From positions 126,909-190,908 of IMG/VR virus record IMGVR_UViG_3300006750_000002: DNA of 64,000 bases. One strand, given 5' to 3'. The notes under the pieces are model-generated. The model made no database searches, was not told the DNA's origin, and was given only the letters and a program-made list of their open reading frames with translations. The stretch's first letter is position 1, and the number at the start of each line of letters is the position of its first letter. Positions 7,526-62,109 of this stretch are shown here, piece by piece. The position numbers were made by a program, and so were the translations under genes. The stretch comes from a virus.

Positions 7526-8899
7526 ATGAGTTTTACAAGTTTATTAAACGAGGTTAGAGAGATATTAGAACAAGAGTTGTCACGTCTGGATGTGATGATG
7601 GATAGGTACACCAAACCTAAGAAAAAGAATAATGGGAAAGTAATTCCAGCAAAAATACCAAAAGAGACACTTATAAAATTAATTTTAGGTGACCCCACTA
7701 GTAGATACGAGGGGGACGGTGAAGACCGGGACCCTCATCTGATGGACGAGATAAAAGTCCAAAAAGTAGGGAAATACACTCAGTGGATAATTAAATTGTG
7801 GTTAGAATTACAACAAAAAGCTCAAGAAGAACATGAGTATTCCCCACAACCTAATTCACCTTACCAGACCAACCTTAACCAATTACAAAAACTATTTTTA
7901 GAAGACCTGTACAAAACAACTGAAGATTTAATTAAGTTTGATAGGTTTAAAAGCCAAATAGACGCTAGTAAAAGAGATATTAATAAAATTTCTTCAACAG
8001 ATGAATTATATGTATTAACAAAAGATTTCTCATTAGAAAAAGCAACGAGCACTAAAGCTGAACAAAAAGAAAAAAGAAAACGTGAGGATGTAAAGTATCT
8101 ATATGATGGAAATAGGTGGGAAGTGGTAGCACCCAAAACCAAAGCAGTAAGTTGTGATATGGCTGGAGCACCCTTAACCAGATGGTGTACCGCTTCGGCC
8201 AATTACAGTTATTTTGAAAGATATAACCCCCAAGGACCCTTATACATAATAAGAGATAAGAATGATATTGTAACTTCTGGGGGTAAAGGAGAAGGTGAAC
8301 CAAGACCTAAATATCAGTTCCATTTCCCATCCAACCAGTATATGGACCAAGACGATAGAAGTGTTAATCTAGAACAGCTGTTGACCACTGGTGGAGAACT
8401 AGAAGAACTAAAGGGATTCTTTAAACACGAATTTGCAAAAGCTCTTAACAAAGACTTTGGTGACCAAGTACAAATAAACTATCCTGGTGACCAGATATCT
8501 AGATTTATAGGTCTTTATGGTTTCGAGGAATTCTTAGATAAGTTACCGAAGTCTTTAAAAAGGTTTGATTTTGAAAAAAGCAAAAATAGAGCTTACGGGG
8601 ATAAGAAAGATAAACTACCTGCACAACCCCTACATCCTAAAATTTTAAATTTTCCTAACTTAGAGGTGTTACACATTGAAGGATTATTAAGTGAACTACC
8701 TGAAGATATTAGTAAATTACAAAATCTAATATTTATTTCTATACCTGACAATCCATCGTTAAAAACTTTACCAGAGTCATTAGCTGACTTACCTAAGTTA
8801 GAAGTTTTAAATGTTAGATTTAACCCTAATCTAAAAATAGGGCCTAGAGTCCAAGAGATGATAGATGGGGGAGATGTGGTATTGATAGAGGGAGGGTAG
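7526..8899 (+). CDS. WCT-core family protein with C-terminal leucine-rich repeats
   Basis: core KYTQW...RDIN...SCDMAGAPLTRWCTAS; LRR-like LPEDISKLQNL / LPESLADLPKLEVL. Confidence 0.75.
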   Translation: MSFTSLLNEVREILEQELSRLDVMMDRYTKPKKKNNGKVIPAKIPKETLIKLILGDPTSRYEGDGEDRDPHLMDEIKVQKVGKYTQWIIKLWLELQQKAQEEHEYSPQPNSPYQTNLNQLQKLFLEDLYKTTEDLIKFDRFKSQIDASKRDINKISSTDELYVLTKDFSLEKATSTKAEQKEKRKREDVKYLYDGNRWEVVAPKTKAVSCDMAGAPLTRWCTASANYSYFERYNPQGPLYIIRDKNDIVTSGGKGEGEPRPKYQFHFPSNQYMDQDDRSVNLEQLLTTGGELEELKGFFKHEFAKALNKDFGDQVQINYPGDQISRFIGLYGFEEFLDKLPKSLKRFDFEKSKNRAYGDKKDKLPAQPLHPKILNFPNLEVLHIEGLLSELPEDISKLQNLIFISIPDNPSLKTLPESLADLPKLEVLNVRFNPNLKIGPRVQEMIDGGDVVLIEGG

Positions 8900-9041
8900 G
8901 AGTTGATTCACTCCTGGTCAGTAGTTTTTACAAACAACTAAAATATCTTTCACCCCTATCACATAGTATGGTTAAAGTCTAGTTTATCTTGATAAGTAAT
9001 TTATTCTTAACTATTATTAACTCATAAAATATTTATATGAT

Positions 9042-9377
9042 ATGGATGTGGATGTAGAGATATATTGTAAAAACTTAAAAGCGTTTTTCACCAATAACCC
9101 TAACAGTAAAGAAGAATTAATGTCGAGTGTTCCTGGAGTTACCTTTGCTAGTTTTATGGGAAGAGTGAGTGTAGTTGCTGGGAAAAACTTTAAAAAGGGT
9201 GGGGACCCATCGTTAACTAGAAAACAACTATTAGACACATTAAATGACCTGTATTTGGAATATGTGGAAGAAAATCATCTAGAACTCTCTAAAGAAGTGG
9301 GAATGGTGGAAACATCACCACTTAACGAAGATAAAATATTCCAAACCTTCAAAGGATTTAATATAGGGCTTAACTAA
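9042..9377 (+). CDS. hypothetical protein
   Basis: ORF 111 aa; TATTTATA 9030-9037. Confidence 0.7.
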   Translation: MDVDVEIYCKNLKAFFTNNPNSKEELMSSVPGVTFASFMGRVSVVAGKNFKKGGDPSLTRKQLLDTLNDLYLEYVEENHLELSKEVGMVETSPLNEDKIFQTFKGFNIGLN

Positions 9378-9385
9378 TAAGATTT

Positions 9386-9892
9386 TTAGGTTGATTTTGC
9401 TTGTATGACTATCCAGTTGTTACTGTCTGACCATACAGCACATCCGTTGTACGCCTTATTTATCCCGTAAGACGCAACACCATCGATAGTCTGCCCAACT
9501 GGAGCTGTGATATCAACAGTGTTTGAGGCCGATACTGTTCCATCATTTACGAATCTGATGAATCTATATGGTGTCTCAGCTGCGGAGGGTAATGTTAATG
9601 TGTGGGTCCCCGAACCCCCTGTCCATGACATATACACCATATCGTTACTGGCAGTATATAAAGAACTACCCCCAGGACCTACCGACAAAAGATAAGGCAC
9701 AAGTGTCGAAAGGCAAGGTGCTATCATATCACAAGGGAATGGTTCAGGTTCAGGTAGGCAATTTAAATATTCTTGTGTGAAAGCAGAATATCTTTGTGGT
9801 GTAGAACTTAATCTCTTAAGTTCCTCACATGGTCCCCAGCTACAACCATAATACTTGTTACCTAACTGATTTAACCAATCGAGATTATCCAT
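9386..9892 (-). CDS. putative virion structural protein (beta-rich, tail-fibre-like C-terminal domain)
   Basis: TLTLPSAA...RFIRFVND...TIDG...YNGCAVWSDSNNWIVI pattern typical of tail/baseplate appendages. Confidence 0.5.
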   Translation of the reverse strand: MDNLDWLNQLGNKYYGCSWGPCEELKRLSSTPQRYSAFTQEYLNCLPEPEPFPCDMIAPCLSTLVPYLLSVGPGGSSLYTASNDMVYMSWTGGSGTHTLTLPSAAETPYRFIRFVNDGTVSASNTVDITAPVGQTIDGVASYGINKAYNGCAVWSDSNNWIVIQAKST

Positions 9893-9909
9893 ATCTATAA
9901 ATCCTTGCG

Positions 9910-11577
9910 TTACATTCTACTTAATTCACCTCTAACCCAAGGTTCGTGATTAGGGCCTAAAGTATAAACAAACTGTCTACCTTGTCTTTCCATTTTCACT
10001 ATCCCAGAGTTGTTTATAACTGCAAAAAATTCAGAGTTGTGCCCTGGGGTATAAGTTCTCCCTATAGAATCATAAAATTCTTTTCTAGTCTTCCCAGGGT
10101 TATTTTTAACAAAGTCCACAAATAATTGAGTTAATGAACCTTCTTTAGGGGGGTATTTAAAAGTTAAAGGTGTATTATATCTATTAGGTTCCCACAATTT
10201 TTTCTGTTCTTGTGTCATTTCTTTAATCTCAGGTCGAGATAATAGGTACCTTAAGTTCGGTAATAAAATATTATTTAAGAAACTTTTTTCGGGTCTTGGC
10301 ACCCATGAGTTCCACTCCTTGTCTAGAAATGTATTTTTAAAACGGTCTTTTTCTGGTAAACCTAACCTATCCCCTATAACTTCCTTATAACCATCTCTAC
10401 GTGAAGCCTCAACAATTTTCTCAGGAAGGATTCTAAAATACCAACCAATGCCCTCAACCAAGTCGTTTTCTTCTGTAGGTGTTATCACTCGGTCAAAGTC
10501 GGATACAATTATCTCATACTCCCCATCAACAAAGAGCTCAACACCTATAGGGGTCGTATAAATTTTATCTCCCGTGTGCTTTACGTACCATTCATGACGA
10601 CCTGACACTTCAAGTTCCCAGGTACCACTTTCTGTATTAAATTTAATTTTTTGACCCAGTAGTTTATCCGTTATTGAGTTAACAAATTGATTTAGAGACA
10701 TATTCCCAACATTAGAGTTTGCTAACTCTTCATAATATTTTGATTCTTTTTCATATAAATCAGTTATTACTTTTTTAGCTGTATTTGGTAACATGTTAGT
10801 AACTATATCCCCAACCCTACTATTCAGCCTATTATCCTGCATATCAAACCACTCGTCATCTCGTGGTGAATCTAAAGTTTTTTTACCTGTCTTATGGTTA
10901 GTATGTAAAGATGGGAACTTTTTAAAAAGAGCTATTTTATACCCTGAACTAGAATCTTTCTTTATTAGATAATATAAAACACCCAGTTTTGAATAATGGT
11001 CAAATTGGGAACTATTATTTTTCATGGCGGTACACCATTTGGTGTTAGCACCGTAATAACAAGAAGCTCCATGACTTTTTGGCCTAATTATTATCCAGTT
11101 ATCGTCTTCATATACCCTATCTACTTCTTTTTTTAGTTCTTTCTCTTTTTGTCTTTTACTGGTCGACGTACTCAGTTCATCTACTATAAATTCTAATTCA
11201 TTTATATTTGCATATGAATTTATATCTTTAGGTGATTTTTTTACGATAGGGCTAACACTTAATTGGTTATACATAAATTCAGGGGTCAACCTACTTAAGT
11301 TTGCATCAAACTTTTGTACCACAGAATAAATGTCTAGAGGGTTTATGCCACCTTCACCTAGGTAAGTGTCGACCATCCATCTTAAATATTTATGGTTGCC
11401 TGATGGGTCATTATCCACAAAAACTTGAAATCTTTCCTCTAAATCGACACCCTGTAAAAAGTGATGGTAAGGATTACCAGGTTCTGTGTAAGGCCATGAC
11501 TCACCTATTTGGTTTTTAAAGAAATTCTTAACATCTTCTAACCTTCCTTCTAATAATATGTGTTTGTTATATCTCAT
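9910..11577 (-). CDS. WCT-core family protein
   Basis: KYLRW...KDINSY...ASCYYGANTKWCTAM; paralogous to 7526 and 11579 ORFs. Confidence 0.75.
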   Translation of the reverse strand: MRYNKHILLEGRLEDVKNFFKNQIGESWPYTEPGNPYHHFLQGVDLEERFQVFVDNDPSGNHKYLRWMVDTYLGEGGINPLDIYSVVQKFDANLSRLTPEFMYNQLSVSPIVKKSPKDINSYANINELEFIVDELSTSTSKRQKEKELKKEVDRVYEDDNWIIIRPKSHGASCYYGANTKWCTAMKNNSSQFDHYSKLGVLYYLIKKDSSSGYKIALFKKFPSLHTNHKTGKKTLDSPRDDEWFDMQDNRLNSRVGDIVTNMLPNTAKKVITDLYEKESKYYEELANSNVGNMSLNQFVNSITDKLLGQKIKFNTESGTWELEVSGRHEWYVKHTGDKIYTTPIGVELFVDGEYEIIVSDFDRVITPTEENDLVEGIGWYFRILPEKIVEASRRDGYKEVIGDRLGLPEKDRFKNTFLDKEWNSWVPRPEKSFLNNILLPNLRYLLSRPEIKEMTQEQKKLWEPNRYNTPLTFKYPPKEGSLTQLFVDFVKNNPGKTRKEFYDSIGRTYTPGHNSEFFAVINNSGIVKMERQGRQFVYTLGPNHEPWVRGELSRM

Positions 11578-11578
11578 T

Positions 11579-13324
11579 TTACCCTATTCTATAAATATAA
11601 AACCATTCACCATCATAAAATACTTCACGTTCTTCACCATCATAACCCGCAAGACCATTTCCTCTACCGTCAGAGGATACAACCTCTCTCACAAATTCAT
11701 CTTCGTCTATAAAATGGGTAATATCTAACCCATACATTTCTATATACTCCATAGGGTCACTTCTGACCTCATCTAATTTAACCTCTACCGCATTTTCTAT
11801 ATCCTCTTCTGTCCATTCATAATTGTCCTCGTCTTCTTTAATTTCTTCTTGTCGTTCCTCTAATGCCTCTATTTGGTCTTGAATATATTCTTTATCCACT
11901 TCTCTTTCCACTTCTTCTAATTCATACCCGTGGTCTGCTATCTGTTCGTCTATAGCTTCTAATTGGTCTTTAAAATACTGGGTCATTACTTTATCCTCTT
12001 CATCTAAATAACTCTCAGGACTTTCTTCCACATCTTCTCTAATAAAGTCTTCTACATACCTAGCAACATCATCACCATCTATGTAATTGGAATAAAAATC
12101 CAGGCTAAAACCTTCATACCCAACGTCCTCAACTAAACTTCTTACTTGTTCTTCAGCAGCGTCATTAGCTTCATCATCATCACCTATCGAATATTCACCC
12201 CCACCATATTCAAATACAGGTAATTCACCATAGTGAGAGTGTCCCTCATACATGATATCGTAAACTGAAGAAGTATTTTCCCTTTCTTCTTCCAGTTCTT
12301 CCTCTAAATTATTTAAATCTTCACCATATTCTTGAGCTCTTTCACCATTAATATCTTCAATTACTTCAGGGTCATTTTCCATGTCGATACGAAGGTCTGC
12401 AATCTGTTCCTCCAAAGAGGATATCTCCTCACTATTATCTTCCCACTCACCTTCATCTTTTAAGTATTCCATTAATGCGTTAGCTCTTACACCTATAGAG
12501 TCTGTATCTTCTGGGTTCCATTCATTGCCCTCTTTCCGTGATTCTGCTTGAGCACTTAATAGTCTTATTCTTTCTCTTCTACGTTGGGCCCATTCATTTT
12601 GTCTTGCCTGTCTCTCCAACTCCATAGCTTTTATCTCAGCACTAATGGCTTCTATTTGGTCTTTATAAGTGTACTCAAAGAAACTTTCTATAGCACCCAT
12701 CAAAGGATGTTTTAAAATATACTCTATGGGTGTTGTGTCACTAATTAAGTTATCTGGGGCATCATAAAAACTTTTACCTCCCCTATATGTTTTATTTAAT
12801 GCTATTTTATAGTAGGGATTAGAAGTAGGTAATGTTTTATCTAATATGTAAAAAAGTTTACCTTCTTTGTTATAATTTTTAAAGTGGGAAGGTTTGTCTG
12901 TAGATGCGGTACACCATTTTGTGCCCCTACCATAATAACAAGATGAGTCATGAGATTCTGGAACTACTACCTTAAAACGGTCATCTTCGTAAATGACTTC
13001 AGATTGTTCGTGAGTATCGATAACTCTTTGTCGTTCTTTTAACTTAACTAAAACTTGATTTAGTTCATGATAATCCTTATATGAGTATAAATCTTTTTTG
13101 GATAAGTTATTCCTTTTTCTATCAAAAGATTCTACAGTGTCCAGTAACATTTCTAAGTAAATGTCGTTTTGAATTGTAGAATTAGTATAGTCTCTAGCAA
13201 TCCACTCCAAATATTTCTGGTTATTTGCTATAGTACCACTCCCAGTTACCATCTTATCCCAGATGTCTAAGGGTATATTATACTTTTCTTTTACTCTTGA
13301 TATTCTATTTTCTACTAGCAGCAT
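11579..13324 (-). CDS. WCT-core family protein with very acidic C-terminal half
   Basis: KYLEW...KDLYSY...SSCYYGRGTKWCTAS; D/E-rich tail. Confidence 0.75.
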   Translation of the reverse strand: MLLVENRISRVKEKYNIPLDIWDKMVTGSGTIANNQKYLEWIARDYTNSTIQNDIYLEMLLDTVESFDRKRNNLSKKDLYSYKDYHELNQVLVKLKERQRVIDTHEQSEVIYEDDRFKVVVPESHDSSCYYGRGTKWCTASTDKPSHFKNYNKEGKLFYILDKTLPTSNPYYKIALNKTYRGGKSFYDAPDNLISDTTPIEYILKHPLMGAIESFFEYTYKDQIEAISAEIKAMELERQARQNEWAQRRRERIRLLSAQAESRKEGNEWNPEDTDSIGVRANALMEYLKDEGEWEDNSEEISSLEEQIADLRIDMENDPEVIEDINGERAQEYGEDLNNLEEELEEERENTSSVYDIMYEGHSHYGELPVFEYGGGEYSIGDDDEANDAAEEQVRSLVEDVGYEGFSLDFYSNYIDGDDVARYVEDFIREDVEESPESYLDEEDKVMTQYFKDQLEAIDEQIADHGYELEEVEREVDKEYIQDQIEALEERQEEIKEDEDNYEWTEEDIENAVEVKLDEVRSDPMEYIEMYGLDITHFIDEDEFVREVVSSDGRGNGLAGYDGEEREVFYDGEWFYIYRIG

Positions 13325-14430: not shown

Positions 14431-15543
14431 ATGGGTATGAAATTACTTCATACAGTGCAAACACTAGTAGAACAAAAAGAACAACCTTTTTGGGTTAAAA
14501 CAGCGCTGGAGAGTTGGTATTGGGCAGACATTGCGGAAACTGTTAAATTATTTGGTGGTGACCTACATGAATATTATAAAGCTCTAGACAGTAGAGGTTT
14601 GGGTGAAGAGTTCTTAAATCAAATTGGTCACTGGGACGAATCCCCTAATTTTTATATTATAGAAGCTTTAGGGGGTAGAAAGGCACTAAATAGTGGAACC
14701 ATGGATACGGATTTAGTTATAAAATACGTGGTAGATAACATAATAGAAAACGAGATTACCGATTTAAATAAATCCCAAGTAGACGGAAAGACGTACCTTA
14801 CGTTAGACATGTACGACAAATCATTATTTTTTGACGAGGGAAATTTCGGTAGTGACACAAGTTGTGAACAAATAGCGGAATTAATTTTCCAAGACAAGCT
14901 TTGGGAGTCGTGGCTCGACTTTAGGAGGCCTTGGACCGCAGACTTGAATGAGTTAGTAGACAACCTAACTCTAGAAAACTATAGGTTGTTATTAACTGAA
15001 ATAATGCATAATAATAAAACCTTAACTTGTTTTAGGGAAGAATTTGAATGGTGGGTCGAAGAAGATAATATAGGTGATGATACTTTTTATCTTGACCCTT
15101 CTCGTATGAATAGTTTTTTAAATGACGATGACAGGTACAATTTTGTTGTATTATTGGAATGTGCGGATGGGTTAGAAGATTATGCGGAGGAACTAAAAGG
15201 GTCTTACAATCTAGCATATAATGAAGAATTAGAATCACAATATTATAATGAGTACCACAAAGCATTAGAAGAATTACTAGGTAAACCTGTAGGTACAGAC
15301 AAAACATACGAGTACAGAGGTAAAGAAAAAATCGAACTTGAAGCGGACGTTTACGACGTTACAGACTTAGTAAATCGCACACTAATCTCCGTAGCTTCAG
15401 ATGATGTGGAAATGGGACACTCCAATTTCGGCGAGATTTATAGAAGTGAAGTGGAAGGGTTATGTCCTGGTGATTTCGATGAAGTTTATGATGACGAAAA
15501 ACTTTGGGCAAGATATAATGAGTTAATCTATGAATCCGTATAA
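14431..15543 (+). CDS. acidic hypothetical protein with LVEQ leader
   Basis: ORF 370 aa; probable start ATG 14437 (MKLLHTVQTLVEQ). Confidence 0.75.
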   Translation: MGMKLLHTVQTLVEQKEQPFWVKTALESWYWADIAETVKLFGGDLHEYYKALDSRGLGEEFLNQIGHWDESPNFYIIEALGGRKALNSGTMDTDLVIKYVVDNIIENEITDLNKSQVDGKTYLTLDMYDKSLFFDEGNFGSDTSCEQIAELIFQDKLWESWLDFRRPWTADLNELVDNLTLENYRLLLTEIMHNNKTLTCFREEFEWWVEEDNIGDDTFYLDPSRMNSFLNDDDRYNFVVLLECADGLEDYAEELKGSYNLAYNEELESQYYNEYHKALEELLGKPVGTDKTYEYRGKEKIELEADVYDVTDLVNRTLISVASDDVEMGHSNFGEIYRSEVEGLCPGDFDEVYDDEKLWARYNELIYESV

Positions 15544-17135: not shown

Positions 17136-17324
17136 ATGTTAATAGTAAAAGTACAAAAAAACAATATAGAAAGAGCTCTTAAAGAGATGAAGAGAAAGGT
17201 AATTAATACACAAATCCTAAAAGAGTGTAGGGAAAGAAAACATTTCACCAAACCATCAATTATCCGCAGAGATGAAATTCAAAAAGCGAGTTACGTACAA
17301 AAAAAGTTTGGGGACGAAGATTAA
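17136..17324 (+). CDS. rpsU: ribosomal protein bS21
   Basis: NIERALKEMKRK...ERKHFTKPSIIRR...KASYVQ, typical Bacteroidota-type bS21. Confidence 0.9.
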   Translation: MLIVKVQKNNIERALKEMKRKVINTQILKECRERKHFTKPSIIRRDEIQKASYVQKKFGDED

Positions 17325-22412: not shown

Positions 22413-22427
22413 ATAATATAAATAGTA

Positions 22428-23048
22428 TTAGTACTCACAATTGGAAAATAAATTGGATTCCTTTATTCTTCTATTACATACACCAAAAGGACAATTCCAG
22501 GACTTAATCTTTTTAGCTGCTTCATCAAATTTACCATATTTGACATCTTGAATCCATGCACTTAATCTAATACCAGGGTTATTTCTACTTCCTTCACAAC
22601 CCGTATTAAAGGCTAAAGAAACCATTGCATCGTACTGACATTGGTTTAATTTAGCACCAGGTAAATCATTTGCACTCCAAACCTTTACTATTCTATTAAC
22701 ACAACCTTCAAACCCACGTAAGTCTTCTTTTAAATACTGTATGGCCTCTTCTTGAGTTATAACCTTCCCTTCGGTAGCATGTTTACCAGTGTGACCATAA
22801 CCTATGGTTAATGTACCTTTAGGTATACCATTTTTATACCTACTACTGTCATATTTTATAGGTGGGTCATTATAATAGCCGTCATCATAGGTGTATAGTA
22901 CAGGTTCACCACCCACCCCTTCATCGTCTGTTAAGAAAGTGATAAGTTGGTCAGACGAAGAAGTGGGCGTCACAACAATCTCCTCTTCCTCAATTAATAA
23001 AGAAAGTTCACTTATAAGTTTCATACCTATAAATACCATAATAAACAA
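22428..23048 (-). CDS. phage lysozyme (GH24) with acidic leader
   Basis: E...Y D...TLTIGYGHT, LNQCQYDAMVSLAFNTG, RRIKESNLF; probable start ATG 23024. Confidence 0.88.
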   Translation of the reverse strand: MFIMVFIGMKLISELSLLIEEEEIVVTPTSSSDQLITFLTDDEGVGGEPVLYTYDDGYYNDPPIKYDSSRYKNGIPKGTLTIGYGHTGKHATEGKVITQEEAIQYLKEDLRGFEGCVNRIVKVWSANDLPGAKLNQCQYDAMVSLAFNTGCEGSRNNPGIRLSAWIQDVKYGKFDEAAKKIKSWNCPFGVCNRRIKESNLFSNCEY

Positions 23049-33483: not shown

Positions 33484-33714
33484 TCACCTAGTCTTAAGGT
33501 ACTCCATAATTAACTGTACCATGTTGGCGTCAAAATATCTAGAATCAAATTCTGCTACAATTTCACTGGAATCTTCAGTTTCGTGATATATCATATAACG
33601 AGGATAATCAAAACCGTCAGTATATTCCACTACCAGTTCCCCATCTTTATACTCTGTTCTACTAATCTCGTCAATACCAAACTCCCTTAAGAGTTTTCTA
33701 ATTTGTTTTGTCAT
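33484..33714 (-). CDS. hypothetical protein
   Basis: ORF 76 aa. Confidence 0.6.
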   Translation of the reverse strand: MTKQIRKLLREFGIDEISRTEYKDGELVVEYTDGFDYPRYMIYHETEDSSEIVAEFDSRYFDANMVQLIMEYLKTR

Positions 33715-45254: not shown

Positions 45255-45266
45255 AAAAACAAAGTT

Positions 45267-54521: not shown

Positions 54522-55406
54522 ATGAAGCCAGTCAGATTAAAAGACCTACACATCCCCCATGAAGTTTTACAACCTATGAAAACTAACACTGAGTTGGATG
54601 CCTTTGTATCTGTAAGGGGAGGGTTCCTACCCTCAACAGTTTATATTGTGGTTGGTGGTGCTGGCACTGGTAAAACTTCGTGGGCTATCGATACCCTTTC
54701 TAAATTACAAAGTAATAACCCCACTAAGAAGTGTTTATATATTTCAGGGGAACAAGATGAGATTGACAATTATGAACTATCTACCTTTATTCCAGGACTA
54801 TTAGAATTGGACACTATTTATCTTGCTGGTGTTAAAAACCCACAAAAACTCATAGAGGAAACGTTAGACCAAGGGTGGGATATGGTAATGATGGATTCTT
54901 TAGAGGTGGTTTCAGGACGTATAGAGACTACCACAGACCTTAACTCTAGGCAAAGTTTAAAATGGGTCATGGACCTCATGTTTAAACATAAGAGAGGGAA
55001 TAACCCTACTAACACTTACACGGGATTCTTGGTCATCCAACAGGCTACTAAGAGTGGGGTTTTTAAAGGGGATTCCTCTATCGAGTTCGACACTACTGGT
55101 ATGTTATATATTCGTAAAGGCCAGGGAAGTGAGAGACACTTGGAGTTCAGTAAGAATCGTAGAGGGGAATCTAACACTAAGTTATTCTATAAATTAGATG
55201 ATGGGCAAATGGTTTACATGAAAGAGGAAGAAGAAATTGTTGAGTCTCCAGTTAAACCCACTATTGGTATTCCTACAATTGCTTTCGCTTCTATAATCAA
55301 AGCTCTAGCTAAAAAAAGATTCAAAACCAACCTTACCCAAAATGAATCATTTGTTATTGTAAAAGAGTTAGAAAATACTTACCAAGAGTTGGTTAAACAG
55401 TGTTAA
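54522..55406 (+). CDS. RadA/Sms-like RecA-fold ATPase lacking Zn finger and Lon domain
   Basis: GGFLP, GGAGTGKT (Walker A), YISGEQ, MVMMDS (Walker B), SKNRRG. Confidence 0.75.
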   Translation: MKPVRLKDLHIPHEVLQPMKTNTELDAFVSVRGGFLPSTVYIVVGGAGTGKTSWAIDTLSKLQSNNPTKKCLYISGEQDEIDNYELSTFIPGLLELDTIYLAGVKNPQKLIEETLDQGWDMVMMDSLEVVSGRIETTTDLNSRQSLKWVMDLMFKHKRGNNPTNTYTGFLVIQQATKSGVFKGDSSIEFDTTGMLYIRKGQGSERHLEFSKNRRGESNTKLFYKLDDGQMVYMKEEEEIVESPVKPTIGIPTIAFASIIKALAKKRFKTNLTQNESFVIVKELENTYQELVKQC

Positions 55407-56818
55407 TTTATTATTTCACAAGGGTCGAATGGACCGAATAAATCCTGTTTTCCAGTTTTCCCTCTTGAAGATTTGTAACCTTTTACATTGTCAGCTTGCT
55501 CACTCATTAAAACTTTTCCTTGACCCGTTACAATAGTAATCCATGGAACGTCATTGTGAGAATCCGCTACTAACCCTTTAATTTGTATTGTCACAGAACC
55601 CAACCCATCCGATTTAGTTTCAGTATTAGATATTTCAAACGCTTGTCTAGAGGACACAACCACACTCCCTTCCCTACTACCACCTTTAACTGTAATCTGG
55701 CCTATAGGATTTCCCGAGTCACTGTCCCCCCCAGCATTGTTTAGGTTTATCACACCTAGTAATCCTGTCTCACCAACCCTAACGTCGTTCATGTATATAG
55801 CAAATCTTGCTTTATTACAACTGTGGCCACCAGGTTTACCTTGGGTATTTATAGAGGTCCTACCATCATTCAACTTTAAACTTCTAGCTTTTTCAATTTC
55901 TATCGCTTTTACATTTTCGTCATACTCTTCCTGAGTTATTTTAGGTTTCACGTTTGGACCTTTATCGTTATTAGCTAACGCAATCTTTAACTTTTCAATG
56001 GTTTTATCAAAAGCTTCAGTAGGGGCATAATACCCAACGATTACTTTCATACCTGTAAGACATTTCCTCTCCTCCTCAGCTCCTCTCCTTACTAGTTCCA
56101 GTGTTACACGAAGTGCTACAATTTGCCCAGGATTTTTATACTTATTAATATCCCTTCTACTGTCTATACATCCGCCCGTATCTGTCACCCATGAATCAAA
56201 GAAAGGTTTGCCTCCATTTTTAGTGGGGTCCAGGATTATTTTTATTTCACTATCGGGTGCAGATAATTCAGTTTTTATAGCGTTCCACAAATTAATCCCT
56301 CTCTTAGCTGCAAGTTCTTCATTTTCTCTTTGACTACCAGTAAAAAAACTTTCTGGTTCAGTATGTTTATATCCAGATTCTGCACTAACTCTAAAATCTT
56401 TATTAGCGTGACCTGCCTTAACAGGACCGTTTAATTCGTTACTAGCGGAACTATAAATTTGTGCGAACGCAATATTCACATCAAACTGTTCTGTATCTAT
56501 TTGTGGGGAGGAATCTATAGCTAACTGTAACGCGTCTACAAATTCCCTCACCATAACAGGATTTTTATCCACACCAGAAGGGAACTCACCCCACGCGTAA
56601 AGACTAAACGTTTTATTATCTATGTCTCTTAGTGGCCCTGTTTTAGGTGCCCCCCTAGGTATTTTTTTATCTTTAGGGAGACAACATCTTGTCCCTAATT
56701 TCTCTAAACCGTCAGGGCACTTACCATTAGTTTGTTCATTAATAGTTTGACCTAAATCATAACCTATTAGGGACTTCATTTTTTTAATCTCGTTCTCTAT
56801 TAATCTTATTTTCATCAT
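55403..56818 (-). CDS. hypothetical protein with LIENE/INEQ leader
   Basis: ORF 471 aa. Confidence 0.75.
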   Translation of the reverse strand: MMKIRLIENEIKKMKSLIGYDLGQTINEQTNGKCPDGLEKLGTRCCLPKDKKIPRGAPKTGPLRDIDNKTFSLYAWGEFPSGVDKNPVMVREFVDALQLAIDSSPQIDTEQFDVNIAFAQIYSSASNELNGPVKAGHANKDFRVSAESGYKHTEPESFFTGSQRENEELAAKRGINLWNAIKTELSAPDSEIKIILDPTKNGGKPFFDSWVTDTGGCIDSRRDINKYKNPGQIVALRVTLELVRRGAEEERKCLTGMKVIVGYYAPTEAFDKTIEKLKIALANNDKGPNVKPKITQEEYDENVKAIEIEKARSLKLNDGRTSINTQGKPGGHSCNKARFAIYMNDVRVGETGLLGVINLNNAGGDSDSGNPIGQITVKGGSREGSVVVSSRQAFEISNTETKSDGLGSVTIQIKGLVADSHNDVPWITIVTGQGKVLMSEQADNVKGYKSSRGKTGKQDLFGPFDPCEIIN

Positions 56819-56967: not shown

Positions 56968-58419
56968 TCACCTTCTTCTTGAAACCCTATCCCACTTAGC
57001 ACCACTAGGTGGCACCGAGAAATTCATCCACCTAAGAGGAGAAATGTTGGTACCGTCATCTATTTTAACCTTTAATGTAGTGTTCGGGATTAATTTATTT
57101 ACGGTTAAGTAAAGTTCACTAAGGGTACTATCAAAATCACGTCTTTCGTTATTTATACCCATTACAATATTCAGAACAAAATTATTACTACCATCCCTAA
57201 AGTAATCAACTACTCTAACATTTTCAATTGATTCTATTTCATTAATGTATTCCATTTCACCCAGACCCATTTCTTCAGTTTCTTTTTCCAGATTTAATAG
57301 GAACTGGTCTACAATGGATTGTATAGCTTTAATAAGTTTATCGGAGTTAGGACTTACTTGTTCAGATAATGTACCACCTATGTTTGTACAAATAGGGTTA
57401 TCAACATAAAAATACCTACTACCTTCAGGTTTAGGTAAAACCATTTTATCAGTATAAACATATTGCTTGTCTTTCATAACAACTTCTTTTTGTCTACCAC
57501 CTATAATAGTTTCACCATCTAAAGTACCATAACCTACCAAATCTACATTTCTTTGTTTAGATACATAAACATTTCCAGTTATTCTATATGCTCCACTATC
57601 TGGATTCATTATGGTGGAAGGCAAATTCTCAATTTTCCATACTTTCTTACACTGTATAGTTTTTAATTCTCCATCTTTTTCCATAATTAAATCTATCCCT
57701 AAAAATACATCTATTATGTCACCACCACCACCCTTATGTATTAGTTCCCATCCACAATCCAACATAGAGTTAAGAACAAAATCCTCAATCTCCTCACCTT
57801 GTAAAGAATAATATAAAGATTGTGTGGTATATAAGTCAGATTTACTAATAAATTTATCATATAATATTTCTGGATAGTTACTTACAACATCAACGACATT
57901 CTGAAGTATATGTATATTACCATCATTTAAATCATTTAACAAATCTTCAGAAGTAAAAGTTTTAGATTTTTCTACTATGTCAGTAATTAAAACAGCCAAG
58001 TCAGAATAGTTAGTATCTAGTTTATTAACTGGGTCCCATTCTAAGTTACCATCTACTTCCCTATATAAAAAACCTAGTTCAGGTATACGGCCATTAATGA
58101 ACTCCTCTATAGTACCATAAGTTATCTTATCCGTCTCCGAAGGCCACTGCCATTTTCTAGTGGGGTCTAAGTCCTTAAGTCTAGATAATGTAGATAAAGT
58201 TCTTTCTTGTTCTTCTGGTGACATAACTGCATTCCACTTTTGTTTTTTCATATCAAAAACTTTTCTAATTAGTGGGTAAGTTATTTTCCTATAAGTTGAT
58301 TTGTTTAATGTAGCACACAATTTTTTAGATAGAGAACGATTAGGGTATTTTGCACAACCCCTAGGTAAATCACCAGAGTCACCCATTTGTTCAGATAATA
58401 TGTTTAATAGTTTAATCAA
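56968..58419 (-). CDS. modular protein with PD-(D/E)xK nuclease-like module
   Basis: D..LGIDLIM....LKTIQCK; leader ILSEQ and internal TLSEQ before a last ~100-aa module. Confidence 0.6.
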   Translation of the reverse strand: MIKLLNILSEQMGDSGDLPRGCAKYPNRSLSKKLCATLNKSTYRKITYPLIRKVFDMKKQKWNAVMSPEEQERTLSTLSRLKDLDPTRKWQWPSETDKITYGTIEEFINGRIPELGFLYREVDGNLEWDPVNKLDTNYSDLAVLITDIVEKSKTFTSEDLLNDLNDGNIHILQNVVDVVSNYPEILYDKFISKSDLYTTQSLYYSLQGEEIEDFVLNSMLDCGWELIHKGGGGDIIDVFLGIDLIMEKDGELKTIQCKKVWKIENLPSTIMNPDSGAYRITGNVYVSKQRNVDLVGYGTLDGETIIGGRQKEVVMKDKQYVYTDKMVLPKPEGSRYFYVDNPICTNIGGTLSEQVSPNSDKLIKAIQSIVDQFLLNLEKETEEMGLGEMEYINEIESIENVRVVDYFRDGSNNFVLNIVMGINNERRDFDSTLSELYLTVNKLIPNTTLKVKIDDGTNISPLRWMNFSVPPSGAKWDRVSRRR

Positions 58420-58884: not shown

Positions 58885-59469
58885 CTAGTCAATTTTATTT
58901 TTTTTAATGGAAAAGTAATATCCAAACTTATTATGTTCATCTCCTGGTTTTAAAAACGTGACCATCCCACTATCTTTAATATCCAATTTTTCTTTAACCT
59001 CCCACCAATTTATTGGAAACCACCAACCACGTTTTCCCATCAAATCCGCCCAAGTAAAGTTACCACCCTCACTAAAACCAGCTCCACCACCACCCCTTTC
59101 AGAATGCTTTATGAAAACATAATTAGCACCATCCCTGTTATAAGCACTTTGAGGCAAAACCTTATCAACATATTCTTTAATTTCCTTACCATATTTTTGA
59201 ATCAAGTATTCCACAACACTTTTTAACCACATTTGATAGTCATCCTCAGCATAGTCTTCACCATTTTCGTCATACCAGGGCAAAACCTCTTTTGCTGTCT
59301 CAAGGGCAGCAACATCAATAATCGAACTTCGCAAACCAGGTGATGACGATAACTTCTTAATAGCGTTTGTTTTCATAAAACCCAAAACCTTATCACCATT
59401 AAAACGTCTCCTAATGGATATAGGTATTTTAGTTTCTTCCTGTAGTATTCTTCTTATAATATTTTTCAT
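58885..59469 (-). CDS. hypothetical protein with ILQEE leader
   Basis: ORF 194 aa. Confidence 0.72.
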   Translation of the reverse strand: MKNIIRRILQEETKIPISIRRRFNGDKVLGFMKTNAIKKLSSSPGLRSSIIDVAALETAKEVLPWYDENGEDYAEDDYQMWLKSVVEYLIQKYGKEIKEYVDKVLPQSAYNRDGANYVFIKHSERGGGGAGFSEGGNFTWADLMGKRGWWFPINWWEVKEKLDIKDSGMVTFLKPGDEHNKFGYYFSIKKNKID

Positions 59470-59654: not shown

Positions 59655-60111
59655 GTTTCATATATGAGATAATAACAACTAAGTTCTTCCCCATTCTCCC
59701 TTATCCCTCCACTAACGTTTCGGTCAGGGTCACTACGGTCATTTCATTCCCTCCGTTTAATGTGGACTCACTAATTTGTTATTATCGTCCTGGTGGGGGC
59801 ATATATATTAGTAGTAATAATGATAACAACTATAATAATATCCCTACTATTATTCCTTATAGGTTACTTCAAAAAGAATAAGAATAAAAACACTTAAGTT
59901 ATATACCCCAGTATAGTTCCAATAAGAATAACCCTATAGTAAAAGGATACAACCAAATAGTAATGGTTATATGTAAGGAACTTCTTAAATACCATATAGT
60001 ATAATCTCTCAATTGGAATGGTCTTCCTAAGGTAAAGATTATTGGGTAATGGTACACTACCATTGGTATAATATTACAAGTGTTAGTATTTATATTAAAA
60101 GAAACAATATC

Positions 60112-60525
60112 ATGGGACGTAAAATAACATTAACCGAAACACAACTACTAAAGACGATAAGGAAAATTGTAAGAGAAGAAGACATGAGATGGTCTGGGTC
60201 TCCTTATGATTTAGAAGGTCATCATATAATAGGATTCGATAATAGATATGATGCAGATGGCAATTACAAACTCTACTGGGGTGATATAGGTAATGGGGAG
60301 GAACTCGTTACTAATGAAGTATTTACTGCCTTACTTAACACATGGTTAGACCCTAAACCAGAACGTTTCTGTACTGTGGAGGAATTCAAGAGTCGTTATC
60401 CCAAGATAAAGAATAGACTATGGAAAGACCATGAAGACTGGATGGGTAGAAACTATATAAATGAGTATGGTTGTATATTAGTCTGGGATAGTAAATATGG
60501 TAAATTAAATGATACAACTAATTAA
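60112..60525 (+). CDS. hypothetical protein with LTETQL...IVREE leader
   Basis: start re-set to ATG 60112; TATTTATA 60087-60094. Confidence 0.7.
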   Translation: MGRKITLTETQLLKTIRKIVREEDMRWSGSPYDLEGHHIIGFDNRYDADGNYKLYWGDIGNGEELVTNEVFTALLNTWLDPKPERFCTVEEFKSRYPKIKNRLWKDHEDWMGRNYINEYGCILVWDSKYGKLNDTTN

Positions 60526-60859
60526 TACACTATATAATATAATTAAAGAAGAACATGATAATGGTTTTCCTGTGCAAGCAATAATAAAGTATTGGCAAAA
60601 GGAGTTAGGTATTACAGACTGGGTAATAACAACACAACGTATTGAATCAGGTCAAATTGACTATGATGACCAAAACTATTTTATTGGAATTGAACGTAAT
60701 TTTGATAATCAAACAGCGATTATCTATCACGATGTAGACTTGTATGAGGAAGCAATCATACATGAGTTAGTACATGTACAACAACCCACATGGTCTGAAG
60801 ACCAAGTCAGTGCAGAGACCGATATATTGATGAATGAAAAACACCCCAGAAGATTTTAA
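60509..60859 (+). CDS. small zincin-like HExxH protein with IIKEE leader
   Basis: AIIHELVHV. Confidence 0.65.
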   Translation: MIQLINTLYNIIKEEHDNGFPVQAIIKYWQKELGITDWVITTQRIESGQIDYDDQNYFIGIERNFDNQTAIIYHDVDLYEEAIIHELVHVQQPTWSEDQVSAETDILMNEKHPRRF

Positions 60860-61039
60860 AAGGTTATTATAAAACCCTTTCTAAGGGTTTGAAACTAGAC
60901 TCCCACACACCTTATCCCTTAATTTTTTTTACTCTCTTACATAAGACCTTAGACACCTCTATCGAGATTCTATACGTATACACACTACTTATATTATACC
61001 TGTTCCTTAACTACTGCTTCTTATCGTATACTCTTTCCC

Positions 61040-61975
61040 ACCATTTACCACATTCTCCCACTATTCTCCACATTGTAATTAACTCTGACGTACTCCTATC
61101 CAAAGATAATGAATAAATTCCGTCTATAAAAGAGATAGACGAGAATAGTTAGTGGCCGCTGAAGGGATTGTGTCCTCCGCGACTCACGACTGACATTTTG
61201 ACAAATCCTAATATTTAGACCACTATTTTAGAAAAGTTATTAACATGACATACTGTCAGGGGGAATGTAGAGGGGTATTTTATGGGTACCGTTACAGACA
61301 TGGCATAACCCACCCTTCCACACCCTAAAGGTACACAAAATAATTTACATGGCCAAATTTTTATACTGACAATATGACCATTGTTAATAAGTTTTTTTTT
61401 ATCAACACCCCATGTGGATAACTCTTAGTGGACCAGACAAATTGTCATGGGATTTATTTGGCCATGTCAAAAAAAAGTGGTACCTTTAGGGTGGTAGTGG
61501 GAGGGAAGCATACCATAGTGAAACCCACAGACTAGGGCACCAGCATAAAGATACAACAATCTTTTTTAATACACAAGTTGTGTGGTAACTTTTTTTTCCG
61601 TATATTTGTAATGTAATATCTCACAAGGGTAGAACCGAGTGTACTCCACCCTGCCTTAAAGTCTGGGAATTATAATATAAAAGGCAGGGTCGGCCCTCAG
61701 GGTCTTTCACCACGTTTATATTATAAAGGTACGAATAATTTTTTTAACAACCAAATCTGAGGACCACTTTATCACATGACAATATGACAATCCTGCAGGG
61801 GGGACTGCAATGGGGTATGCTATGGGTATGCAGCCCCCATGTTAATACTCTCTCCCTAGACCCCCTTCTGGGACCATGGAGCGGCCCCCTGCCCCCCTGG
61901 TGGCTCGCCGTATCCCCCCTTACTAGCGGCTTTTGAGGGGGTGTAATGGGGGTACGGTCCCGTAAAAGAAATCTG
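61040..61975. other. gene-poor, motif-rich region; candidate replication origin or terminal region
   Basis: no ORF of 60 aa or more after 61116; DnaA-box-like 9-mers, TGACA-N3-TGWCA repeats, GC-rich tract. Confidence 0.45.
61578..61608 (+). promoter_or_regulatory. Bacteroidota sigma-70-type promoter
   Basis: TTG (61578-80), 20 nt, TATATTTG (61601-08). Confidence 0.55.
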
Positions 61976-62043
61976 CACTATAAAATTTTTAGAAATTTTT
62001 TTTTAGATATGCGGAAGTATTTTTATCTAAACTATACAACATT

Positions 62044-62109
62044 ATGAAAAATCATTTTTTAATATCCGATGAAGAAAAGAACAGAATTAGGAATCTACAT
62101 GAATACTAA
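62044..62109 (+). pseudogene. 21-aa leader-only stub MKNHFLISDEEKNRIRNLHEY
   Basis: manual translation; ends at the junction with a tRNA fragment. Confidence 0.5.

What the first reader, a model, noticed from the sequence alone, without database searches (positions are those of the whole stretch)
7526..62109. Window-wide [I/L/V]-x-E leader code on about 15 putative virion-cargo proteins (candidate capsid-targeting and protease-maturation system)
Seen: many unrelated ORFs start with a short, often basic/amphipathic leader ending in [ILV]-x-E(E/Q). Examples are LLNE (7526), ILLE (11577-), LLVE (13324-), LVEQ (14437), YLESEE (15560), ILETLEE (20074-), IIKE (22412-), LLIEEEE (23024-), IKEQ (44007), IITEEQ...LHE (45267), IQEQ (46229), LIENE...INEQ (56818-), LSEQ (58419-), ILQEE (59469-), LTE...IVREE (60112), IIKEE (60509) and LHE (62044 stub). 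The domains behind these leaders are diverse enzymes (lysozyme, amidase, SLT, DHH, PAP2, nuclease, zincin). Host-like metabolic genes such as glnII, clpP, trxA and cyclophilin do not show this leader. Established: T4 internal proteins use a ~10-aa capsid-targeting leader (IPIII MKTYQEFIAE) removed by prohead protease gp21 after (I/L)-x-E, and phiKZ-like jumbo phages also cleave many head proteins after Glu. Inference: this phage packages and matures a large, modular arsenal of injected effectors using one peptide code. Caveat: a 3-residue motif is common by chance, so only positional enrichment counts.
Basis: partly seen in the sequence, partly recalled or inferred. Interest (0 to 1): 0.82.

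Follow-up and report, generated by a model that had tools for sequence, protein, structure and literature searches.

The report
Capsid-loading-like leader tags on phage proteins
Several unrelated proteins of this uncultured T4-type jumbo phage start with portable N-terminal tags that end in the cutting motif of the T4-type head protease, so they are most likely loaded into the capsid and clipped as T4 does with its internal proteins, though no experiment shows it.

Summary
The bare [ILV]-x-E motif is weak evidence. It is enriched at N-termini in the window (45/86 against about 30-33 expected). However, phage T4 shows the same generic excess, and the other 104 genes of this genome show none.

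Specific, portable leader families lie underneath it:
- **Type 1** (M-K-I-x-I-T-E-x-Q-L-K-K..h-N-E-Q) sits on three window genes (45267, 56818-, 60112).
- **Type 2** (M-K-x-L-I-R-K-I-L-K-E-E) sits on 59469-, with variants at 46229 and 33714-.

In IMG/VR these motifs lie directly after the start codon in 74% and 93% of matches, on more than 150 unrelated cargo proteins.

Leader-bearing records belong to a clade of roughly 300-kb phages. All four complete genomes of that clade encode a T4 gp21-type (S77) prohead protease, and their capsid protein keeps an L-I-N-E|A junction.

About 12-14 of the 17 listed examples are plausible leaders, four of them firmly. Two fail (15560 is marginal; the 62044 stub is not a gene).

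This contig is a 60% fragment with no head module, so its own protease is unseen. Cleavage and packaging are inferred, not shown.

The scan has reported the same phenomenon before on other genomes. I found no publication describing it.

The parts
45267..46229 (+). SLT transglycosylase with PG_binding_1 domain carrying a type-1 leader (residues 1-22, nt 45267-45332: MKIIITEEQLKKIMEIKTTLHE)
   Evidence: Pfam SLT and PG_binding_1. Type-1 HMM score 27.8 bits, against 10.9 for the best of 2567 interior decoys. It has 114 N-terminal partners with non-homologous cargo. The G001 orthologue keeps the leader but has a ~130-aa insertion after it.
55403..56818 (-). 471-aa protein of unknown family with a type-1 variant leader (residues 1-28, nt 56818-56735: MMKIRLIENEIKKMKSLIGYDLGQTINE|Q)
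   Evidence: HMM score 17.6 bits. The leader is conserved in G001 although the whole protein is only 27% identical. No Pfam or PHROG family.
60112..60525 (+). 137-aa protein with a type-1 leader (residues 1-22, nt 60112-60177: MGRKITLTETQLLKTIRKIVRE|E). TATTTATA lies at 60087-60094.
   Evidence: HMM score 28.0 bits. It has 19 modular partners. Upstream motif.
58885..59469 (-). 194-aa protein with a type-2 leader (residues 1-11, nt 59469-59437: MKNIIRRILQE|E)
   Evidence: Type-2 HMM score 24.5 bits; the next best N-terminus scores 8.5 and the best decoy 7.1. In the IMG/VR scan, 134 of 144 type-2 matches lie directly after ATG, on 113 distinct proteins.
46229..49045 (+). 938-aa PAP2-domain protein with a type-2-like leader (MYTLKEIRKILNIQE|Q, nt 46229-46273)
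   Evidence: Pfam PAP2. The N-terminal extension is identical in G001, which supports the 46229 start. It resembles the IRKILNEE leaders of unrelated proteins at E 0.005-0.075.
56968..58419 (-). 483-aa protein, TTG start, with a leader (L/M)IKLLNILSE|Q (nt 58419-58390), a candidate third leader type
   Evidence: Conserved in G001. It resembles MKLLDIL[KS]EQ and MIKILNVLRSIINEQ on unrelated cargo at E 0.01-0.03, which is borderline.
20487..22412 (-). 641-aa DHH-like phosphoesterase with a short leader MEKIIKE|SG (nt 22412-22392). TATTTATA lies at 22417-22424.
   Evidence: Weak Pfam DHH match. Orthologues in other contigs all start MKKL[IL][KN]E|SGIRDI, and one (L176) has a full type-2 leader in front.
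22428..23024 (-). Phage lysozyme with leader MKLISELSLLIE|EEE (nt 23024-22989), followed by a ~50-aa linker before the catalytic domain
   Evidence: Pfam Phage_lysozyme covers residues 68-183 of the 203-aa call. The leader is conserved in G001 while the rest is only 31% identical.
7526..8899 (+). 457-aa protein with weak LRR-like C-terminus; N-terminus MSFTSLLNEVREILE|QE. TATTTATA lies at 7498-7505.
   Evidence: The N-terminus is identical in G001. A distant 454-aa relative starts MKFTSLLTNLILE|N. Upstream motif. This is a candidate member, not a firm one.
9910..13324 (-). Two paralogous genes (9910-11577 and 11579-13324) with N-termini MRYNKHILLE|GRLED and MLLVE|N. TATTTATA lies at 11590-11597 and 13339-13346.
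   Evidence: Both genes hit the same PHROGs. Relatives start ..HIILE|TILNE|GRLQD. The LLVE of 13324- matches the second site that follows a type-1 leader in a relative, L051. Candidate members.
44007..45254 (+). 415-aa protein, N-terminus MERGKTIKE|QTPN. TATTTATA lies at 43995-44002. It heads the run 44007-49045.
   Evidence: Conserved in G001. It bears only a weak resemblance to type-2 ..ILKEETPN (E 0.075). The G013 homologue does not keep the site. Weak candidate.
33484..33714 (-).
   Evidence: It matches MKKLIRKILREE and MMRNNIRKILREF on unrelated cargo at E 1e-4 to 3e-3.
14431..15543 (+). 370-aa protein, N-terminus MGMKLLHTVQTLVE|QKEQ
   Evidence: Conserved in G001. No cross-genome modular partner was found. 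Unverified candidate.
17321..20074 (-). 917-aa protein, N-terminus ..QQGLILE|TLE|EKD
   Evidence: Both sites are conserved in G001. No modular partner was found. Unverified candidate.

Best explanation
**Proposed mechanism.** The window is an accessory-gene region of an uncultured T4-type jumbo phage of Bacteroidota, with an estimated genome size of ~300 kb. A subset of its proteins begins with short portable leader peptides of at least three kinds. By analogy with the T4 capsid targeting sequences and the propeptides of Alt and gp24, I propose four steps:
1. The leader docks the protein onto the scaffolding core while the prohead assembles.
2. The gp21-type (S77) prohead protease then cuts after the Glu of a hydrophobic-x-Glu site. 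In type 1 the sites are I-T-E at residue 7 and h-N-E at about residues 15-25. In type 2 the site is L-K-E at residue 11.
3. The mature cargo stays in the head.
4. The cargo probably leaves with the DNA at infection.

**Shown.**
- The leaders exist, are N-terminal, are selected at the protein level, and are shared by unrelated cargo.
- The clade has the protease and a matching junction in its capsid protein.
- Leader-type N-termini go with a late-type upstream motif.

**Inferred.** Docking, cleavage, residence in the virion and injection.
For: **1. N-terminal position and portability.**
- A degenerate DNA scan of IMG/VR for K-I-x-h-T-E-x-[QEDH]-h-K-K gave 121 matches. Of these, 90 have an ATG 1-4 codons upstream, giving 54 distinct proteins.
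- Positions the pattern left free are still conserved (Q at position 8 in 45/54; I/L/V at position 12). Synonymous codons vary freely.
- For type 2, 134 of 144 matches lie directly after ATG, on 113 distinct proteins.
- The type-1 HMM scores 14 N-termini at 17.6 bits or more. The best of 2567 interior decoys scores 10.9.
- Pairs with a similar N-terminal 24-mer but non-homologous cargo number 7780. The same count for interior segments is 91.

**2. Protease context.**
- 17 of 45 leader-bearing records carry Peptidase_S77. All 4 complete genomes (257-353 kb) carry it.
- G013 has a T4-type head module: TerL, gp20 portal, S77 protease, acidic scaffold and gp23.

**3. Matching cleavage motif.**
- The capsid proteins of four clade genomes all read ..YENQAS[YH]LINE|A.. 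This sits between a propeptide that aligns with T4 gp23 residues 6-43 and the mature core.
- The second site of type-1 leaders prefers N at P2 (13/52 against 8% background, p 2.5e-4) and Q at P1' (11/52 against 3%, p 3e-7).
- 40 of 54 leaders have this second site at residues 15-25, against 20% in controls.

**4. T4 precedents.** Read from the T4 record and from papers:
- Alt MELITE| is processed at ITE-6 (PMC5694885).
- gp24 reads MAKINELLRE|.
- IPII and IPIII read MKTYQEFIAE|.
- gp21 cuts after L/I-x-E, and the CTS is 10-19 residues long (PMC9026906).

**5. Leader conserved where cargo diverges.** Seen between G000 and G001: lysozyme 31% identity and the 56818- protein 27% identity.

**6. 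Late-type upstream motif.**
- TATTTATA is the most upstream-specific 8-mer in both G000 and G013.
- It precedes the G013 protease and scaffold genes and several leader genes.
- Genes with it carry an N-terminal [ILV]xE[EQN] in 19/65 cases. The figures are 8/86 for TAnnTTTG genes and 46/466 for the rest (Fisher p 0.002 and 4e-5).

**7. Head-module protein with a leader.** A conserved protein next to TerL (p473) has leader-like N-termini ending VLKE|A, KINE|A and SLVE|Q.
Against: - No virion proteomics, cleavage assay or packaging test exists for any member, and there is no cultured close relative.
- This contig and its sister G001 lack the head module and the protease. The protease is inferred from more distant clade members that share 82 of 190 proteins at a median 39.5% identity.
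- The link between leaders and the protease is at lineage level only. Every T4-type phage has gp21, so its presence does not discriminate between functions.
- Type-1 conservation continues past the first I-T-E site, and internal copies exist (genome 120618-122309, residues ~439 and ~467-487). The module is therefore not strictly a terminal propeptide.
- Some cargo is unexpected for head contents: a sigma-70-like factor, a pterin dehydratase, and three kinds of cell-wall hydrolase that could simply be endolysins.
- There is no sequence homology with the T4 CTS itself.
- TATTTATA often lies only 3-4 nt from the ATG, so its role as a promoter is not settled.
Confidence: 0.6

Rival explanations
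1. Most of the pattern is generic. Short hydrophobic-x-Glu strings are common in the helical, Lys/Ile/Glu-rich N-termini of small phage proteins from AT-rich genomes. On this view the 17 examples are not one system.
For: - T4, with only about ten cleaved proteins, shows the same excess of bare [ILV]xE at N-termini (93/225 against 77, z 2.7).
- Genome-wide in G000 the excess is not significant (74/190 against 66).
- Several listed examples have no cross-genome partner (14431, 17321-, 60509).
Against: - Leader HMMs and the two IMG/VR scans show specific modules of 12-22 residues that are almost exclusively N-terminal and sit on unrelated cargo.
- [ILV]xE[EQ] is enriched in this clade but not in T4.
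- The 104 core genes of the same genome show no excess.
Confidence: 0.1
2. The leaders are real portable tags with a different job. One option is N-terminal degrons or recognition tags for a Clp-type protease, which would time the lifetime of accessory proteins (the phage carries two ClpP paralogues at 35758-37034). Another option is tags for some other partner or place, such as the membrane, the tail or the lysis machinery.
For: - Two ClpP genes lie in the window, and one is 64% identical to the G013 copy.
- The Met-Lys-hydrophobic-hydrophobic-hydrophobic start resembles published N-terminal ClpX recognition motifs. This comparison is from my own knowledge and was not tested here.
- The cargo includes cytoplasmic-looking enzymes and a sigma factor, and several wall hydrolases that could be endolysins needing regulation.
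Against: - Nothing ties ClpP to the leaders beyond sharing a lineage.
- This view does not explain why leaders end in the same h-N-E motif as the capsid protein's maturation junction.
- It does not explain the close match to the processed T4 termini ITE-6 and LLRE-10.
- It does not explain the association with the motif that precedes the prohead protease and scaffold genes.
- The leaders are not hydrophobic enough to be signal or SAR sequences.
Confidence: 0.15
3. The leaders act before or during translation or folding. They might be an N-terminal sequence that boosts initiation in a host without Shine-Dalgarno pairing, or a short oligomerisation helix. On this view they are never removed.
For: - The start regions are A-rich and lack SD sequences.
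- The leaders are Lys/Ile-rich, which AT-rich codons encode.
- Conservation continues past the first Glu site.
Against: - Synonymous codons vary freely at every conserved residue: four Thr codons, three Ile codons and five Leu/Phe codons. Selection is therefore on the peptide, not on the RNA.
- Core, highly expressed structural genes of the same genome do not use the leaders.
- This view does not explain the Glu-terminated design or the Q/N preference after it.
Confidence: 0.08

Closest known systems
Phage T4 capsid targeting sequence (CTS) of internal proteins IPI, IPII and IPIII (MKTYQEFIAE), removed by prohead protease gp21
   Same: - Both are short N-terminal peptides directly after Met.
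- Both are shared by proteins whose mature parts are unrelated.
- Both end in hydrophobic-x-Glu.
- Both occur in a phage lineage with a gp21/S77 protease and a gp23-type capsid protein that has a cleaved propeptide.
   Different: - There is no sequence similarity to MKTYQEFIAE.
- At least three leader types exist here instead of one.
- Type 1 is longer (about 20 residues, with two Glu sites).
- The leaders sit on more than 150 distinct cargo proteins across the clade, against three in T4.
- The host is Bacteroidota.
- Nothing has been shown experimentally.
N-terminal propeptides of T4 Alt (processed at ITE-6) and gp24 (MAKINELLRE|S)
   Same: - Type 1 starts MK-I-I-I-T-E, the same I-T-E site at nearly the same distance from Met as Alt's MELITE.
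- Type 2 ends I-L-K-E at residue 11, close to gp24's L-L-R-E at residue 10.
   Different: - The resemblance covers only 3-4 residues, so homology cannot be claimed.
- Alt also has a C-terminal propeptide (LTE-619), which was not examined here.
Long propeptides of phiKZ / 201phi2-1 / SPN3US head and ejection proteins, cut by the S80 protease (gp175 / gp245)
   Same: - Many head-internal proteins are matured by cleavage after Glu.
- Paralogues with divergent bodies keep conserved N-termini.
- Propeptides can hold multiple sites.
   Different: - Those sites have a small residue at P3 (S/A/G-x-E), whereas here P3 is I/L/V.
- Those propeptides are mostly longer than 100 residues.
- The protease family differs (S80 against S77).
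- Those phages are not T4-type.

Membership tests
T4-type capsid targeting / gp21-cleaved N-terminal propeptide | Short peptide located directly at the N-terminus | tested here: met
   - 90 of 121 type-1 matches and 134 of 144 type-2 matches in IMG/VR lie within 1-4 codons of an ATG.
- The HMM separates N-termini from 2567 interior decoys.
T4-type capsid targeting / gp21-cleaved N-terminal propeptide | Ends in the gp21 motif L/I-x-Glu | tested here: met
   - Type 1 has I-T-E at residue 7 plus a second [ILVM]-x-E at residues 15-25 in 40 of 54 leaders.
- Type 2 has L-K-E at residue 11.
- The motif definition comes from PMC9026906.
T4-type capsid targeting / gp21-cleaved N-terminal propeptide | Same leader on proteins with unrelated mature parts (portable) | tested here: met
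   - 7780 N-terminal modular pairs, against 91 for interior segments.
- 55 type-1 proteins show a mean column identity of 7% outside the leader and have diverse or no Pfam families.
T4-type capsid targeting / gp21-cleaved N-terminal propeptide | The phage encodes a gp21 / Peptidase_S77 prohead protease | tested here: inconclusive
   - Not found on this contig or its sister. Both are about 60% complete and also lack gp23.
- Present in 17 of 45 leader-bearing records and in 4 of 4 complete genomes of the clade.
T4-type capsid targeting / gp21-cleaved N-terminal propeptide | Capsid protein matured at the same kind of site | tested here: met
   In the clade, though not in this contig, four gp23 homologues keep L-I-N-E|A between the T4-like propeptide and the mature core. 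Cleavage itself is inferred.
T4-type capsid targeting / gp21-cleaved N-terminal propeptide | Sequence homology to the T4 CTS MKTYQEFIAE | tested here: not met
   Leader consensus sequences show no similarity to the T4 IP leaders read from the T4 record. Only the 3-4-residue sites of Alt and gp24 resemble them.
T4-type capsid targeting / gp21-cleaved N-terminal propeptide | Leader is removed in mature virions and suffices to package a foreign protein | not testable with these tools
   This needs virion N-terminomics and leader-reporter fusions. No cultured close relative exists.
phiKZ-type (S80 protease) head-protein propeptides | Cleavage motif with a small P3 residue (S/A/G-x-E) and long propeptides | tested here: not met
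   P3 at the leader sites is L 27, I 18, V 6, M 1. The leaders are 11-25 residues long. The clade protease matches S77.

The most novel reading that the evidence does not exclude
This clade of ~300-kb T4-type phages of Bacteroidota may use a small alphabet of interchangeable address tags (at least three types) to load well over a hundred unrelated protein families into the capsid for co-injection. The cargo would include cell-wall hydrolases, a DHH phosphoesterase, a PAP2 phosphatase, a sigma factor and many proteins with no known family. That would be an order of magnitude beyond T4's three internal proteins. The different tag types might set copy number, position or order of release.
Probability: 0.35. 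Interest if true: 0.8.

Novelty: new variant of a known kind. Interest (0 to 1): 0.62.

Why it matters
**Injected proteome.** If the tags do load cargo into heads, these abundant aquatic phages would inject a large, quickly evolving protein kit together with their DNA. That would change how their host takeover and counter-defence are read from sequence. Dozens of 'hypothetical' genes would become candidate first-minute effectors.

**Use as a tool.** The tags would also be ready-made packaging signals for loading foreign proteins into phage heads in Bacteroidota systems, as the T4 CTS is used in E. coli.

**Testability.** One virion mass-spectrometry experiment with semi-specific searching would settle the question.

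Tried and rejected
- **The search for related loci with single proteins.** It found only the sister contig for 45267 and nothing for 56818-.
- **The search for homologous proteins on residues 1-40 of the g096 leader protein.** It returned only orthologues. The word index is unsuited to a 20-residue motif.
- **First IMG/VR pattern.** It had too few fixed bases.
- **Full-text searches for leader strings.** They found nothing relevant. A search for an expanded CTS repertoire in metagenomic T4-like phages found only T4 and SPN3US work.
- **Pfam and PHROGs.** They hold no family for the leaders or for most cargo.
- **PSSM trained on G013 N-terminal anchors and applied to G000.** It gave p 8e-5, but I reject it as evidence. 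The score is driven by the position of the start Met and by small-sample noise.
- **Single-linkage clustering at E 0.05.** It chained 412 proteins, including ordinary Rossmann N-termini. I used only stricter thresholds afterwards.
- **Negative controls.** A crAssphage record could not be used because the accession is not held. T4 was used instead.
- **ClpP as the prohead protease.** I considered and rejected this, because the clade has a separate S77 protease inside a T4-type head module.

Full report
**Source and gene calls**

The window is the last 64 kb of a 190,908-bp IMG/VR virus record, with a CheckV completeness of 60%. GC content is 34%. Start codons are preceded by A-rich sequence with no Shine-Dalgarno signal, which is typical of Bacteroidota. 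I called 190 genes, 86 of them in the window.

Pfam confirms the lysozyme, amidase, SLT plus PG_binding_1 and PAP2 calls, and gives a weak DHH match. It also finds two ClpP paralogues. 'Nuclease' and 'zincin' were not confirmed.

**Is the 3-residue motif more than chance?**

| Gene set | [ILV]xE starting at residues 3-23 | Expectation |
|---|---|---|
| Whole genome | 74/190 | about 66 from interior windows (z 1.4) |
| Window | 45/86 | 30.2 interior (z 3.8); 32.9 shuffled N-termini (z 3.0) |
| Other 104 genes (mostly virion and replication) | 29 | 33 |
| Phage T4, 150 kb, same gene caller | 93/225 | 77 (z 2.7) |

- T4 shows a similar generic excess, so the bare motif is not diagnostic.
- The four-residue form [ILV]xE[EQ] behaves differently:
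  - not enriched in T4 (7 against 8.8);
  - enriched in the window (11-13 against about 5);
  - enriched in an independent, complete and distant relative, G013 (35/414 against 14.5, z 5.9).
Two redox genes carry LKEE and LLEE at residues 20-23.

**Leader type 1**

Four proteins of the genome share a module of about 20 residues: K-I-x-[IL]-T-E-x-[QD]-[IL]-K-K-h...h-x-E-[QE]. Three are in the window (45267, 56818-, 60112). The fourth lies just outside it.

A degenerate DNA pattern for the first 11 residues was scanned over IMG/VR:
- 90 of them have an ATG 1-4 codons upstream, giving 54 distinct proteins with unrelated continuations.
- Positions the pattern left free are still conserved (Gln at position 8 in 45/54; Ile/Leu/Val at position 12; then an acidic stretch).
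- Synonymous codons vary freely, so selection acts on the peptide.
- In 40 of the 54, a second [ILVM]-x-Glu follows with its Glu at residues 15-25, against 20% in interior controls.
- That second site prefers Asn before the Glu and Gln after it (p 2.5e-4 and 3e-7).

An HMM of the module scores 14 N-termini of G000 and G013 at 17.6 bits or more. The best of 2567 interior decoys scores 10.9.

**Leader type 2 and other variants**

An all-against-all comparison covered 1850 proteins from this genome, G013 and the fetched loci. It found 7780 pairs with similar N-terminal 24-mers but non-homologous bodies, against 91 such pairs for interior segments. At stricter thresholds it exposed a second leader, M-K-x-[LI]-I-R-[KR]-I-L-[KR]-E-E, to which the window gene at 59469- belongs.

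A second IMG/VR scan without a start codon in the pattern gave 144 matches. Of these, 134 lie directly after ATG, on 113 distinct proteins.

| Gene | N-terminus | Basis |
|---|---|---|
| 46229 | IRKILNIQE\|Q | type-2 variant |
| 58419- | IKLLNILSE\|Q | resembles MKLLDIL[KS]EQ on other cargo |
| 22412- (DHH gene) | MEKIIKE\|SG | orthologues all start MKKL[IL][KN]E\|SGIRDI; one has a full type-2 leader in front |
| 13324- | MLLVE | matches the second site behind a type-1 leader in a relative |
| 11577- | MRYNKHILLE\|GRLED | relatives read ..IILE\|TILNE\|GRLQD |

Two further leaders are conserved in the sister contig G001 although the bodies are only 31% and 27% identical. These are the lysozyme leader (23024-) and the 56818- leader.

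Not supported:
- 15560 is marginal. It does not fit the motif, and the amidase domain starts at residue 21.
- 60509 may be read-through of promoter-like DNA.
- The 62044 stub is not a gene.
- 14431 and 17321- are conserved in G001 only.

**Which phages carry the leaders?**

- Of 45 type-1-bearing IMG/VR records, 17 encode a Peptidase_S77 (T4 gp21) protease. All four complete genomes (257-353 kb) do. CheckV estimates put every fragment at a genome size of about 300 kb.
- I fetched the complete 310,542-bp G013. It has a T4-type head module: TerL and gp20 portal (both with inteins), two small proteins, the S77 protease, an acidic scaffold-like protein and gp23.
- G000 shares 82 of its 190 proteins with G013 at a median 39.5% identity. 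Only 20 of the 86 window proteins are shared, so the window is a variable accessory region.
- Neither G000 nor G001 holds gp23 or the protease. The head module lies in the missing part, and the protease of this phage is inferred, not seen.
- The nearest cultured phages are distant. Flavobacterium phage immuto has 40% identity in the capsid protein. No virion proteomics is therefore available.

**Does the clade protease plausibly cut such sites?**

- The N-terminal region of G013 gp23 aligns with the T4 gp23 propeptide (residues 6-43) and with the start of the mature T4 protein.
- The only hydrophobic-x-Glu between these two regions is I-N-E at residue 60.
- All four clade capsid proteins read ..YENQAS[YH]LINE|A.., while the following residues vary.
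- This is the same h-N-E that ends many type-1 leaders.
- The clade proteases keep L-I-E near their N-terminus, as T4 gp21 does.
- A conserved protein next to TerL has leader-like N-termini ending VLKE|A, KINE|A and SLVE|Q.

- gp21 cuts after L/I-x-E.
- IP propeptides of 10-19 residues target the proteins to the core and are portable (PMC9026906).
- Alt is processed at ITE-6 and LTE-619 (PMC5694885).
- The T4 record reads Alt MELITE, gp24 MAKINELLRE and IPII/III MKTYQEFIAE.

Type 1 (MKIIITE) and type 2 (..ILKE at residue 11) resemble the Alt and gp24 termini in site and spacing. They show no similarity to the IP leader.

**Timing of expression**

- TATTTATA is the most upstream-specific 8-mer in both G000 (30 genes) and G013.
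- In G013 it precedes the protease and scaffold genes.
- In G000 it precedes large genes outside the window, and the leader genes at 7526, 11577-, 13324-, 22412-, 44007 and 60112. I did not annotate the genes outside the window myself; an earlier, unchecked note of this scan calls one of them a fibre.
- Pooling both genomes, genes with this motif have an N-terminal [ILV]xE[EQN] in 19/65 cases. The figures are 8/86 for genes behind the host-type TAnnTTTG and 46/466 for the rest (Fisher p 0.002 and 4e-5).
- That the motif is a late promoter is my inference. In several genes it lies only 3-4 nt from the ATG, which I cannot explain.

**Cargo**

Of 55 type-1 proteins, most match no Pfam family. The matches are SLT, GH19, Hydrolase_2, PG_binding_1 (two proteins), a pterin-4a-carbinolamine dehydratase and a sigma-70-like protein. 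Wall hydrolases recur. This fits penetration enzymes carried in the particle, but it fits regulated endolysins equally well.

**Points against a simple propeptide**

- Conservation runs through the first I-T-E site.
- Internal copies exist. The gene at genome 120618-122309 carries RVLNE|Q and IKLTEADLYKIVDRVLNE|K near its C-terminus. It may be a polyprotein.

**Verdict**

The 3-residue code by itself is not convincing. It is, however, the visible tip of real, portable leader families. I count about 12-14 plausible members in the window, four of them firm.
- The capsid-targeting and protease-maturation reading is the best explanation (about 0.6). It rests on analogy and on lineage-level association; no step of targeting or cleavage has been observed.
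- Earlier follow-ups of this scan reached the same reading on other genomes of T4-type phages of Bacteroidota. Those are unverified notes, not independent evidence.
- I found no paper describing such an expanded leader repertoire.

Noticed in passing
window 43613-43684 (+): Rfam finds a tRNA (41 bits) that ARAGORN did not report. A mechanical ORF (43657-43971) overlaps it and is probably not a gene.
   Followed up: no
window 60860-62300: A stretch of about 1.4 kb has no ORF over 75 aa, lies in the window's most GC-rich 4-kb block (60001-64000, 0.362) and has no Rfam match at gathering score. It is a possible non-coding RNA or a decayed gene.
   Followed up: partly
window 35758-36438 and 36435-37034 (+): Two adjacent ClpP-family genes (184 and 105 bits). 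The first is 64% identical to the single copy in G013. Their role is unknown. They are not the prohead protease, which in this clade is an S77 enzyme.
   Followed up: partly
genome 120618-122309 (-), = L002:1119-2810: This 563-aa protein has internal leader-like modules near its C-terminus (..YRVLNE|Q.. and NVIKLTEADLYKIVDRVLNE|K), followed by a Cys-rich tail of ~75 aa. It is a candidate polyprotein cut at internal sites. The arrangement is conserved in G001.
   Followed up: partly
window, e.g. 9030-9037, 22417-24, 23028-35, 28414-21, 35358-65, 43995-44002: TATTTATA falls into two spacing classes relative to the start codon: 3-4 nt, and 12-28 nt. The close class would imply leaderless transcripts, a different start codon, or a role other than a promoter.
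   Followed up: no
L136:10414-13458 and L136:13516-16290 (G013): In the complete relative, the large terminase and the gp20 portal genes both carry intein and LAGLIDADG insertions.
   Followed up: no
L184 (IMG/VR 3300042514_002278), ORF starting MKNLIRKILKEE..VVGGAVRDLL: A protein whose N-terminal ..VVGGAVRDLL string resembles that of the window gene at 32425-33165, which an earlier scan note calls a CCA-type enzyme, carries a full type-2 leader in another phage. The window copy has none. The same cargo therefore seems to occur with and without a tag.
   Followed up: no
window 916-1206 (+): There is a sub-threshold match (17 bits, E 3e-4) to positions 10-105 of the Gp23 profile. It runs across stop codons between two small genes and is probably noise, but it was not examined.
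   Followed up: no
L035 (IMGVR_UViG_GVMAG-S-1006664-8_000001, 5.5 kb): A record labelled as a giant-virus MAG fragment carries both a type-1 and a type-2 leader gene. It is probably a misbinned piece of a phage of this clade.
   Followed up: no
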